Virus record (IMG/VR): IMGVR_UViG_3300032285_003360 | Coordinates: 1-64,000 of that record | Source: a virus | Strand: one strand, 5' to 3' | DNA length: 64,000 nucleotides | Shown here: positions 46,571 through 47,235 of the stretch, one piece after another | Layout of the letters: every line of letters begins with the position of its first letter | How positions within the stretch are numbered: the stretch's first letter is position 1 | Position numbers and translations under genes: made by a program | The notes under the pieces: generated by a model | Databases searched by the model: none | Told to the model about the DNA's origin: nothing | Seen by the model: the letters and a program-made list of their open reading frames with translations, nothing else

Positions 46571-46810
46571 ATGGATTTTAAGTTTTTTAAAAGTGAAGAA
46601 TTAATACACGATAACTTTATTATATTACAACCTACAAATTTTGCACCTGAAAATGCTGAATTTTGTTTTCAATTTGGTGATGAGGAACCTGTTGTATTTG
46701 CTAATGGGCCAAATGAATGTCAAATTCGTATAAGTCCAACACCAGGTGGTAGTATGATATTCAATGATAATGGTAAAGTTTTTAAATTATTCGCAAGACC
46801 AAGAGTATGA
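46571..46810 (+). CDS. FKF-tagged small protein (MDFKFF)
   Basis: Tag; paralog of the preceding gene. Confidence 0.8.
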   Translation: MDFKFFKSEELIHDNFIILQPTNFAPENAEFCFQFGDEEPVVFANGPNECQIRISPTPGGSMIFNDNGKVFKLFARPRV

Positions 46811-47235
46811 TGCACAAGTTTAAATTTTTTGAGGGGTTTCTTGAGAACGTATATGTGTTTGACACCGCTAATATTGTTGCGAGACATGTTCAGCATGGTG
46901 AAAGAACTTTACGTGCAACGTGGAGACCTGAACCAATAGAAGATATCTATTCACATCATGGGATAGATGCTGAGGCGGAATTAACAAGAATGCTATCAGC
47001 ACAATGGGCACAAGAGATTGACAATGATATCATTAGACGATTAAGAGAAATCATTGGTGAAGAAAATGAAACCGATGATGAAGTATTAAGAGGTATTGAA
47101 GTTTTAAATGGTAGAGTTGAAGAGAGTGTTGATACAATCAGAAGAGTAACAAGAAGAATAAATGGTGGGGACGATTTAGCAGATAACGCCGACTATCTTG
47201 GTAGATATTTGGATATAGGAGGAGATAGAGCATGA
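46807..47235 (+). CDS. FKF-tagged protein containing a gp23 major-capsid-like fragment
   Basis: MMHKFKFF; RTLRATWRPE...D....HGIDAEAELT..LS.....EID.DI. Confidence 0.85.
   Translation: MMHKFKFFEGFLENVYVFDTANIVARHVQHGERTLRATWRPEPIEDIYSHHGIDAEAELTRMLSAQWAQEIDNDIIRRLREIIGEENETDDEVLRGIEVLNGRVEESVDTIRRVTRRINGGDDLADNADYLGRYLDIGGDRA

What the first reader, a model, noticed from the sequence alone, without database searches (positions are those of the whole stretch)
46807..47235. Tagged mini-protein carrying a major-capsid (gp23-like) fragment: possible capsid decoy
Seen: residues about 33-79 (nt about 46903-47043) read RTLRATWRPEPIEDIYSHHGIDAEAELTRMLSAQWAQEIDNDIIRRL. Established, from recall: T4-type gp23 has a conserved block R.LKA.(Y/W)..ELAQDL...HG.DA.AEL..IL..EI..EI.RE. 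At 142 aa this cannot be a functional capsid protein, and it sits inside a glycosylation operon. Capsid proteins are known triggers of anti-phage sensors such as CapRel and Lit. Inference: the fragment is bait for a capsid-sensing host protein, or a capsid-assembly interferer, coupled to the FKF hub.
Basis: partly seen in the sequence, partly recalled or inferred. Interest (0 to 1): 0.85.

Follow-up and report, generated by a model that had tools for sequence, protein, structure and literature searches.

The report
Tagged capsid-fragment mini-protein, giant phage
An uncultured giant T4-like phage keeps a small gene under selection. It consists of a short end tag, a copy of the best-conserved piece of the phage head-shell protein, and a conserved tail. 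I found no published description of such a gene, and its function is untested.

Summary
ORF 46807-47235 (142 aa) is intact and overlaps both neighbours by ATGA. Residues 26-83 match the T4-type major capsid protein family (Pfam Gp23, E 6e-11). They align to T4 gp23 residues 253-310, which cover the P-domain strand, the segment before the spine helix and the first part of that helix.

It is not a decaying remnant. At least 80 tagged relatives of 65-170 aa exist, and dN/dS is 0.15-0.5. Three modules are conserved: an N-terminal FKFF-x-G tag, the capsid block, and a C-terminal TRRINGG...RA. After the tag the body has no lysine (family 0.5% K; large ORFs of this record 6.7%).

All close relatives keep it in one slot of a glycosyltransferase operon. 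Two cultured phages with the same operon core lack both the gene and the tag. Sister classes lie elsewhere. It therefore goes with the tag system, not with glycosylation. It does not fold alone (pLDDT 52).

Most likely (about 0.4) it mimics a capsid contact element and acts on the phage's own head assembly. A decoy or antagonist of a capsid sensor is possible (about 0.15) and untested.

This scan has met the family before in other genomes.

The parts
46807..47235 (+). Whole mini-protein gene (142 aa plus stop). It overlaps both neighbours by ATGA, which suggests translational coupling.
   Evidence: family of 51 clusters; at least 81 tagged small relatives among 1.84e9 representatives
46807..46842 (+). 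N-terminal end tag, residues 1-12 (M-M-H-K-F-K-F-F-E-G-F-L). F5, F7, F8 and G10 are invariant in the family. The tag holds the protein's only two lysines.
   Evidence: alignment A1; 27 tagged ORFs in the window; lysine count
46882..47055 (+). Capsid-protein block, residues 26-83, equivalent to T4 gp23 253-310. It covers the P-domain beta-strand (R-x-L-R-A-x-W), the acidic segment before the spine helix, the H-G-I-D turn and the first part of the spine helix.
   Evidence: Pfam E 6.1e-11; own-record six-frame hit at 46882-47055; own MCP HMM E 3.2e-16; PDB alignment; regional dN/dS 0.26
47044..47145 (+). Acidic helical insert, residues 80-113, holding the motif E-T-D-x-E-V-L-R-G. It is present only in a 'long' subset of the family and absent from the 70-105 aa members.
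   Evidence: alignment A1; AF2 helix 90-118 at low confidence
47146..47232 (+). Conserved C-terminal module, residues 114-142: T-R-R-I-N-G-G, then D-Y-L-x-R-Y-L-D-I-G-G-D-R-A. The family consensus for the end is [NIM]-G-[GDN]-x-[RIV]-A-COOH.
   Evidence: unique to this ORF in the record; regional dN/dS 0.33
46571..46810 (+). Upstream small ORF 'B' (79 aa). It also starts with the tag (M-D-F-K-F-F) and has a tag-like F-K-L-F near its end. It is present next to the mini in most related loci (absent in L083, L085, L094 and L095).
46322..46570 (+). Small ORF 'A' (82 aa), a paralogue of B without the tag. It is present in most related loci (absent in L088).
43712..46320 (+). Two GT1/GT4-type glycosyltransferase genes (451 and 418 aa) that always precede the A/B/mini group in relatives. 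They are 70-77% identical to those relatives.
47323..48066 (+). GT2-type glycosyltransferase that follows the mini in all related loci, either directly or after the Cys-rich module or its epimerase-like fusion.
1006..1485 (-). Another FKFF-tagged ORF (159 aa). Its ortholog in a 316-kb relative shows a weak, sub-threshold likeness to the N-arm part of gp23. Whether it belongs to this finding is uncertain.
   Evidence: Pfam E 4.4e-4 for the ortholog, none for this ORF; 69% identity between the two; own MCP HMM E 1.6

Best explanation
The gene encodes a trans-acting mimic of one structural element of the phage's own T4-type major capsid protein: the basic P-domain strand, the acidic segment after it and the start of the spine helix. 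The mimic is fused to the FKFF end tag that this phage clade puts on about two dozen small proteins.

It cannot fold or form a shell on its own. I propose that it docks on the capsid protein, or on a partner that reads this capsid element. Candidate sites are the capsomer-capsomer contact near the quasi-threefold axes, the portal-whisker site around His282/Met284 of T4 gp23, or the folding machinery that handles the spine helix. In this way it would modulate head assembly or decorate the head. The tag would act as an address label.

Shown: homology, selection, modular architecture, lysine depletion, fixed synteny, co-occurrence with the tag system, and lack of an autonomous fold.

Inferred: the binding partner, the site and the effect on assembly.
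For: 1. The block is a true gp23 segment.

2. The positions that stay conserved across the minis are those conserved in capsid proteins. The two consensus sequences share 24 of 50 columns. The window's mini is 54-60% identical to capsid-protein blocks but only 42% identical to the mini of the 316-kb relative. Selection therefore preserves capsid-likeness, not just any helix.

3. Selection is purifying. Pairwise dN/dS is 0.15-0.5, and the block is lowest at 0.26. All 10 distinct DNA copies are intact.

4. The aligned T4 residues 253-310 include His282 and Met284, which the paper names as clustering with the portal N-terminal methionines. They also include G292, V306 and V307, the gp31-bypass positions in the spine helix (PMC9546572). 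The same paper says that capsomers are held near the quasi-threefold axes by a short acidic P-domain helix and basic P-domain strands. That the block holds these two elements is my inference, because the paper gives no residue numbers.

5. AF2 gives only the expected strand and helix elements at pLDDT about 52, for this class and for a sister class. This fits a protein that needs a partner.

6. The family is acidic (median net charge -6; this protein -12) and helical, like the scaffold and core proteins of the 316-kb relative.

7. Sister classes carry two gp23 pieces, the spine block plus the N-arm block, between two tags (Pfam two stretches, E 1e-20 to 1e-23). The system therefore repeatedly recruits capsid contact elements.

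8. The gene co-occurs with the tag system and not with the glycosyltransferase operon as such.
Against: - There is no direct evidence of binding.
- The gene lies about 180 kb from the head module in the near-complete relative.
- In the one genome where both are known, its block is no closer to the capsid protein of its own genome (50%) than to others (44-50%). There is no co-evolution signal.
- T4-type phages of 160-190 kb (immuto, Mel-JY01) lack it. Several cultured jumbo phages with gp23-type capsids (XacN1, RsoM2USA, Xoo-sp13, CM1) show only their capsid gene in tblastn. It is therefore not a general requirement for such heads.
- The arrays of tagged small ORFs look like early accessory-gene arrays, although timing is untested.
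- The tag also occurs at C-termini. It lacks a conserved Glu for a T4-type protease cut, so it is not simply a T4 capsid-targeting sequence.
- The lysine-free body is not explained by this model.
Confidence: 0.38

Rival explanations
1. It is a decoy or antagonist for a host immune sensor that recognises the capsid protein. The mini-protein would present the least mutable epitope of the capsid protein to a defence protein and block or mistime it.
For: - The block is the most conserved stretch of gp23-type proteins, so it is a logical target for a sensor.
- The gene belongs to a set of fast-evolving tagged accessory proteins. The mini is 30-46% identical between relatives whose neighbouring genes are 60-77% identical.
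- Capsid proteins are known triggers of Lit, CapRel and some CBASS and Pycsar systems (established knowledge).
- Lysine avoidance could reflect escape from a lysine-directed host conjugation system (inference).
Against: - No sensor is known for this block. The Lit ligand Gol is gp23 93-122, whereas this block is 253-310.
- There is no PADLOC or NCBIfam relation for the mini or its small neighbours.
- For known sensors, an isolated epitope activates rather than blocks.
- The conserved C-terminal module and the acidic insert are not explained.
Confidence: 0.15
2. It is a weapon against competing T4-type phages. As a dominant-negative capsid fragment it would cap the capsomer edges of a co-infecting relative and poison its head assembly, while the producer's own capsid protein is insensitive.
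For: - It carries the same contact-element mimicry as in the best explanation.
- It is accessory, clade-restricted and fast-evolving.
- Capsid-assembly interference is a known strategy of satellites such as P4 Sid and SaPI CpmAB (established knowledge).
Against: - The block is about equally similar to the capsid protein of its own genome and to foreign ones. Self-sparing is therefore hard to see.
- There is no sign that the producer's capsid protein has diverged at the matching positions. These are invariant across 32 capsid proteins.
Confidence: 0.1
3. It is part of the glycosylation pathway. Either it is an adaptor that brings the neighbouring glycosyltransferases to the capsid protein, or it is itself a glycosylated product. 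The tag lysine would then be the single acceptor and the lysine-free body would avoid off-target modification.
For: - It holds a strictly conserved slot between the 418-aa GT and the GT2 in every related locus, with ATGA overlaps on both sides.
- ORF B next to it is also tagged.
- Lysine is confined to the tag.
Against: - The same GT-GT-GT2 core works without it in Flavobacterium phage immuto, where an unrelated 152-aa ORF fills the slot, and in Microcystis phage Mel-JY01, where the slot is empty.
- Most tagged ORFs lie far from any glycosyltransferase.
- Sister classes lie in other contexts.
- I know of no lysine O- or N-glycosyltransferase of this type.
Confidence: 0.12
4. It is a non-functional remnant of a capsid-gene duplication, or an ORF called by chance.
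For: It is short, lacks an autonomous fold and lies outside the head module.
Against: - Among about 150 proteins of 200 aa or less returned by the two searches, 65 carry both tag and block by my stricter pattern (81 by a looser one), and 46 also carry the C-terminal [IVL]-[NSD]-G-G motif.
- dN/dS is 0.15-0.5 with saturated synonymous sites.
- All copies are intact, keep a fixed synteny and overlap their neighbours.
- Lysine is depleted to 0.5%, which requires selection.
Confidence: 0.02

Closest known systems
T4-type major capsid protein gp23 and vertex protein gp24 (Pfam PF07068; PDB 6uzc, 5vf3, 8t9r, 1yue)
   Same: Residues 26-83 are homologous to gp23 253-310, which cover the P-domain strand, the segment before the spine helix, the H-G-(M/I)-D turn and the first part of the spine helix. 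The residues invariant in capsid proteins (D-A-E-A-E-L-T, R-x-L-R-A-x-W) are kept.
   Different: - It covers only 58 of 376 profile positions, with no A-domain, no insertion domain and no rest of the P-domain.
- It has no autonomous fold.
- It lies outside the head module.
- It carries an added N-terminal tag and a C-terminal module.
- Its lysines are replaced by arginine.
Capsid-targeting sequence (CTS) of the T4 internal proteins IPI, IPII and IPIII (Mullaney and Black 1996; reviews PMC9026906 and PMC9958956)
   Same: It is a peptide of about 10 residues, shared at the N-terminus of otherwise unrelated small proteins of a T4-type phage. In T4 such a peptide loads proteins into the prohead core.
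   Different: - The sequence is different (F-K-F-F-x-G against M-K-T-Y-Q-E-F-I-A-E).
- There is no conserved Glu for an L/I-x-E protease cut.
- The tag also occurs at C-termini and at both ends of sister classes.
- Tagged bodies are lysine-poor, whereas the T4 internal proteins are basic (the last point is from my own knowledge).
Soc, the small outer capsid protein of T4 (from my own knowledge)
   Same: It is a protein of about 80 aa, encoded away from the head genes, that binds between gp23 capsomers near the quasi-threefold axes.
   Different: Soc has its own fold and no sequence relation to gp23. It has no end tag. Binding of the present protein to capsids is not shown.
Gol peptide of gp23 with Lit protease, and CapRel-type capsid sensing (from my own knowledge)
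   Same: These show that a short segment or a fold of a major capsid protein can be the ligand of a host defence protein.
   Different: Gol is gp23 93-122, a different segment. The known ligands activate the defence. No defence partner is known for this block.
Encapsulin cargo-loading peptides (from my own knowledge)
   Same: They are short terminal peptides, at either end of diverse cargo proteins, that dock on the inner face of an HK97-fold shell. This is an analogy for how the tag might work.
   Different: The sequences are unrelated. The system is cellular, not phage. No docking has been shown here.

Membership tests
Gp23-type major capsid protein (PF07068), as a homologous sequence | Significant match to the family profile | tested here: met
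   E 6.1e-11, 42.8 bits against a cut-off of 24.4; T4 gp23 chains at E about 1e-9
Gp23-type major capsid protein, as a functional shell subunit | Complete HK97 fold with N-arm, E-loop and insertion domain, P-domain and A-domain (about 450-600 aa) | tested here: not met
   Only profile positions 141-198 of 376 are present; 142 aa against 575-680 aa for capsid proteins of the clade
Gp23-type major capsid protein, as a functional shell subunit | Encoded in the head module next to portal, protease and scaffold | tested here: not met
   In the 95%-complete relative the capsid gene lies at about 20.6-22.3 kb, after portal, core, protease and scaffold. The mini lies at 203.6 kb in the glycosyltransferase operon.
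T4 capsid-targeting sequence (CTS) proteins | Short N-terminal peptide shared by unrelated small proteins of one phage | tested here: met
   27 ORFs in the window carry the motif at a terminus
T4 capsid-targeting sequence (CTS) proteins | Ends in a prohead-protease site (L/I-x-E) and is strictly N-terminal | tested here: not met
   The residue after F-F is E here but H, S, R, K, N or D elsewhere. Four ORFs carry the tag at the C-terminus, and sister classes carry it at both ends.
T4 capsid-targeting sequence (CTS) proteins | Protein found inside proheads or virions, with the tag removed on maturation | not testable with these tools
   This needs virion proteomics.
Gol-type trigger of Lit | Corresponds to gp23 residues 93-122 | tested here: not met
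   The block aligns to gp23 253-310
Double-glycine-leader peptide precursors (considered because of I-N-G-G) | Variable core peptide after the G-G, with conservation mainly in the leader | tested here: not met
   In many members only three residues (x-R-A) follow G-G, and they are conserved. A matching peptidase or exporter was not searched for.
Known anti-phage defence or counter-defence families | Profile match in PADLOC or NCBIfam | tested here: not met
   No hit for the mini, A, B or the Cys-rich ORF

The most novel reading that the evidence does not exclude
The FKFF tag and the lysine-free bodies mark an undescribed address-label system of giant T4-type phages. In this system capsid-contact mimics, meaning this spine-block protein, its N-arm counterpart and the two-block, two-tag sister classes, are docked through the tag lysine, perhaps covalently. 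They could dock onto the head lattice as staples or assembly regulators. Alternatively they could dock onto a host capsid sensor as a non-activating antagonist. Either would be a new way of using fragments of a virus's own shell protein in trans.
Probability: 0.15. Interest if true: 0.85.

Novelty: new variant of a known kind. Interest (0 to 1): 0.62.

Why it matters
Major capsid proteins are thought of as single, complete building blocks. Here one contact element of the T4-type shell protein has been copied out as a separate small gene and then kept under selection in well over fifty sequence clusters. It has been given a shared end tag and stripped of lysine.

If it acts on the phage's own head, it is a new class of assembly or decoration factor for very large capsids. 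It would also be a natural lead for peptides that tune or block HK97-fold assembly.

If it acts on host immunity, it would be the first capsid-epitope antagonist.

In either case it gives a concrete handle, a defined payload with a known structural origin, for finding what reads the FKFF tag. About two dozen other proteins of these phages carry that tag.

Tried and rejected
- The look-up of encoding contigs.
- Complex prediction.
- The look-up of sequencing runs.

Searches that gave nothing useful:
- AF2 monomer models of this class and of the two-tag sister class had pLDDT about 52. I therefore did not run fold searches on them.
- The ESM Atlas gave no useful neighbour. All scores were under 0.9 and TM under 0.3.
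- NCBIfam and PADLOC gave nothing for the small ORFs.
- The T4 late-promoter motif TATAAATA occurs at chance level, 15 against 14 expected, so expression timing stays unknown.
- The scan of bacterial and archaeal genomes returned only full-length capsid genes on phage contigs binned into MAGs.

Leads that did not hold:
- A possible second copy: ORF 15166..15609 shares 10 of 14 residues with residues 35-48. It does not continue into the helix in any frame and is not seen by the capsid HMM. This is unproven.
- The 'Gol-like' tagged ORF 1006..1485: capsid HMM E 1.6 and no Pfam hit. Its 69%-identical ortholog reaches only E 4.4e-4, below the cut-off. This is weak.
- Portal-whisker mimicry by the tag: the portal of the relative starts M-A-D-Q-N-L-T-V-F-Q-K-L, which is not the tag. 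The core protein after it starts M-K-N-F-G-L-L-K, which is only vaguely tag-like.

Readings rejected:
- Double-glycine precursor: rejected because only x-R-A follows G-G in many members.
- Pseudogene: rejected.

Literature: searches found no description of such a gene.

Full report
**1.

The ORF 46807..47235 (+) is open and 142 aa long. It overlaps the stop of the upstream ORF and the start of the downstream ORF by ATGA.

- Pfam Gp23 (PF07068) matches residues 26-83 to profile positions 141-198 of 376. E is 6.1e-11 and the score is 42.8 bits against a gathering score of 24.4.
- PHROG 138 'major head protein' gives 1.2e-9.
- An HMM that I built from 73 full-length capsid proteins of about 600 aa, taken from related uncultured phages, matches only this ORF in the whole 101,769-bp record. 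E is 3.2e-16 at positions 369-423 of 603.
- The record is an IMG/VR contig judged 31% complete. It holds no full-length capsid gene.

**2. Which piece of the capsid protein it is**

A profile of the family finds T4 gp23 chains (6uzc, 5vf3, 8t9r) at E about 1e-9. It aligns to gp23 253-310. By that alignment the protein contains three parts:
- the strand around R264-S271 (here R-T-L-R-A-T-W);
- the segment I272-R279 (here P-E-P-I-E-D-I-Y);
- His282-Gly-Met284-Asp (here H-G-I-D) and the spine helix up to I310.

The numbering is checked by Fang et al. 2022 (PMC9546572). That paper places His282 and Met284 in the P-domain, and G292, V306 and V307 in the spine helix. It also reports that capsomers are joined near the quasi-threefold axes by a short acidic P-domain helix and basic P-domain strands. 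It reports that the portal's N-terminal methionines cluster with Met98, His282 and Met284, and that the spine-helix positions above decide whether gp23 needs the gp31 co-chaperonin. That the acidic helix and basic strand of the paper are the ones in this block is my inference, because the paper gives no residue numbers for them.

**3. It is a conserved gene family, not a remnant**

- A word-indexed search found 51 clusters of 80-170 aa.
- A profile search of 1.84 billion representatives found 1822 hits at E up to 1e-3 and 365 at E up to 1e-10. These include full-length capsid proteins.
- Among about 150 proteins of 200 aa or less returned by the two searches, 65 carry both the tag and the block by my stricter pattern, and 81 by a looser one. 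Of the 65, 46 also carry the C-terminal [IVL]-[NSD]-G-G motif.
- The alignment shows three conserved modules. The first is M-x-x-(K)-F-K-F-F-(E/H)-G, with F5, F7, F8 and G10 invariant. The second is the capsid block, with D54, E56, E58, L59 and T60 invariant. The third is T-R-R-I-N-G-G followed either by x-R-A or by about 20 residues ending I-G-D-N-R-A.
- The window's copy belongs to a long subclass with an acidic helical insert at residues 80-113.
- A DNA pattern scan of IMG/VR gave 18 loci, with 10 distinct coding sequences including the window's copy. Pairwise Nei-Gojobori dN/dS is 0.15-0.5. Examples are 0.20 at dS 0.10, 0.15 at dS 0.73, and 0 non-synonymous changes at dS 0.04.
- By region, pooled over pairs, dN/dS is 0.26 for the block, 0.33 for the C-terminus, 0.40 for the tag and 0.51 for the linker.

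**4. Selection keeps it capsid-like**

In the 316-kb, 95%-complete relative (G001), the capsid gene (575 aa) follows portal, core proteins, protease and an acidic scaffold. The mini lies about 180 kb away.
- The block of that mini is 50% identical to the capsid protein of its own genome and 44-50% identical to others.
- The window's block is 54-60% identical to capsid-protein blocks but only 42% identical to the G001 mini.
- The two consensus sequences agree in 24 of 50 columns.

The minis therefore diverge from each other while holding on to the residues that capsid proteins also hold. This is what is expected of a mimic that must keep binding whatever that capsid element binds. There is no sign of co-evolution with the capsid protein of the same genome, but only one genome could be tested.

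**5. Lysine**

I tested this here.
- After the tag, this protein has 0 Lys and 16 Arg in 134 residues, and 14 of the Arg codons are AGA.
- Across 81 tagged minis the body has 0.48% Lys and 9.5% Arg, and 56 of the 81 have no lysine at all.
- The homologous block of capsid proteins has 3.5% Lys. ORFs of 200 aa or more in this record (32.5% G+C) have 6.7% Lys and 3.3% Arg.
- The 27 tagged ORFs of the window have 3.1% Lys in their bodies. Untagged ORFs of 200 aa or less have 8.8%.

This is a strong and unexplained signal of selection. It suggests that something acts on lysine and that the tag lysine is either the intended site or the only tolerated one.

**6. Context**

In every related locus the order is: a 65-aa ORF, GT (about 451 aa), GT (about 418 aa), small ORFs A and/or B, the mini, an optional Cys-rich module, then GT2.
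- Not every locus has both A and B. L083, L085, L094 and L095 lack B, and L088 lacks A.
- Neighbouring genes are 60-77% identical to the window, while the mini is only 30-46% identical.
- ORF B is also tagged.

Two cultured phages carry the same operon core. In Flavobacterium phage vB_FspM_immuto the slot holds an unrelated 152-aa Zn-ribbon ORF. In Microcystis phage Mel-JY01 the slot is empty. Neither has the mini, and neither has any M-x-x-F-K-F-[FL] gene start, while G001 has 8. The mini therefore travels with the tag system and not with glycosylation as such.

Two sister classes support this:
- One class has a tag at both ends and often a second gp23 piece, the N-arm block D-L-V-x-V-Q-P...G-x-L-F-Y, placed after the spine block. 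Pfam finds two stretches at E 1e-20 to 1e-23.
- A class of about 137 aa, with tag-like K-F-N-F and H-K-F-I ends, lies in quite different neighbourhoods.

**7. Structure**

AF2 with the family alignment gives mean pLDDT 52 for this protein, with helices at 44-50, 55-84, 90-118 and 124-139 and a disordered N-terminus. For the two-tag class it gives 52.6, with a hairpin, a short helix and a long helix.

The secondary-structure elements of the capsid protein are kept, but there is no autonomous fold. The helix keeps its hydrophobic stripe (L59, L63, W67, I71, I75, L79), which must be buried against something. The family is acidic, with a median net charge of -6 and -12 for this protein.

**8. Reading**

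The best-supported explanation (0.38) is a trans-acting mimic of a capsid contact element. It would dock on the capsid protein or on a partner of that element during head morphogenesis, addressed by the tag.

The rivals are:
- an antagonist or decoy of a capsid-sensing defence (0.15);
- a dominant-negative weapon against related phages (0.10);
- a role in the glycosylation pathway (0.12);
- a remnant (0.02).

None of the functional readings could be tested directly.

**9. Novelty**

The protein is homologous to Gp23 but fails the features that define a shell subunit. The tag resembles the T4 capsid-targeting sequence in logic but fails two of its defining features. I found no paper that describes stand-alone, conserved capsid-fragment genes of this kind.

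This scan has noted the same family in several other genomes. Those notes agree on the observation and likewise leave the function open.

- the residue-level map to T4 gp23 and its published contact sites;
- the finding that capsid-likeness itself is the conserved property;
- the dN/dS and lysine figures for the family;
- the cultured-phage comparison that uncouples the gene from the glycosyltransferase operon;
- the two sister classes.

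Noticed in passing
window 47232-47417 (+); L083 9178-10152; L095 1193-2140; L103 1292-1477 (-): A 61-aa Cys-rich ORF (C-x-x-H...C-W-x-C) follows the mini by an ATGA overlap. It runs into a tract of about ten A's just before the GT2 start at 47323. In some relatives the same Cys module is fused to an epimerase-like protein. In others the GT2 has an N-terminal extension. It could be a mobile zinc-ribbon module or a slippage site.
   Followed up: partly
window 43288-43419 (+); L082 4048-4212; L088 12050-12223 (-): A small conserved ORF starts M-G-C-G-C-K-K-K and continues with a Pro/Gln-rich tail. 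It lies just upstream of the operon. It is followed by a near-palindrome (ATATCGTCGATAT ... ATATCGACGATAT) and a T-run at about 43420-43480.
   Followed up: no
window 46322-46570 and 46571-46810 (+): Two tandem paralogous small ORFs of no known family precede the mini. The second carries the FKFF tag at its start and a tag-like F-K-L-F near its end.
   Followed up: partly
window 106-15609 (-), 25649-26062 (-), 46571-47235 (+): 27 ORFs carry F-[KRQ]-F-[FL] at a terminus. Four have it at the C-terminus, three of them behind hydrophobic N-termini. Their bodies hold 3.1% Lys and 7.75% Arg, against 8.8% and 3.6% in untagged small ORFs.
   Followed up: partly
window 15166-15609 (-): A tagged 147-aa ORF has a 14-residue stretch (L-K-A-T-W-R-S-E-P-I-G-V-I-Y) that is 10/14 identical to residues 35-48 of the mini. 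A hydrophobic tail follows in place of the helix. It could be a diverged paralogue or chance.
   Followed up: partly
P0065, P0072, P0088, P0102, P0136, P0159 (alignment A4); L002/L110, L111 1249-1659, L112 6437-6850: These are sister classes of capsid-fragment mini-proteins. One has the tag at both ends and two gp23 pieces in permuted order. Another, of about 137 aa, lies in other phage lineages and contexts.
   Followed up: partly
window 39507-40646 (-) and 42508-43197 (-): A 379-aa thymidylate-synthase-family protein, longer than usual, and a DNA methylase lie just upstream of the sugar operon. The operon might act on DNA rather than on protein.
   Followed up: no
window 58460-59980 (-): A 506-aa ORF matches the PHROG family annotated as tryptophan halogenase at E 4e-103. 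This is unusual cargo for a phage.
   Followed up: no
window 2474-2761 (-) and 14921-15256 (-): Two ORFs of the tagged arrays show cellular-type domains. ORF 2474-2761, which is tagged in my count, has a weak likeness to ribosome modulation factor (E 2e-4, below the cut-off). ORF 14921-15256 has a FeoA domain (E 5e-6, above the cut-off).
   Followed up: no
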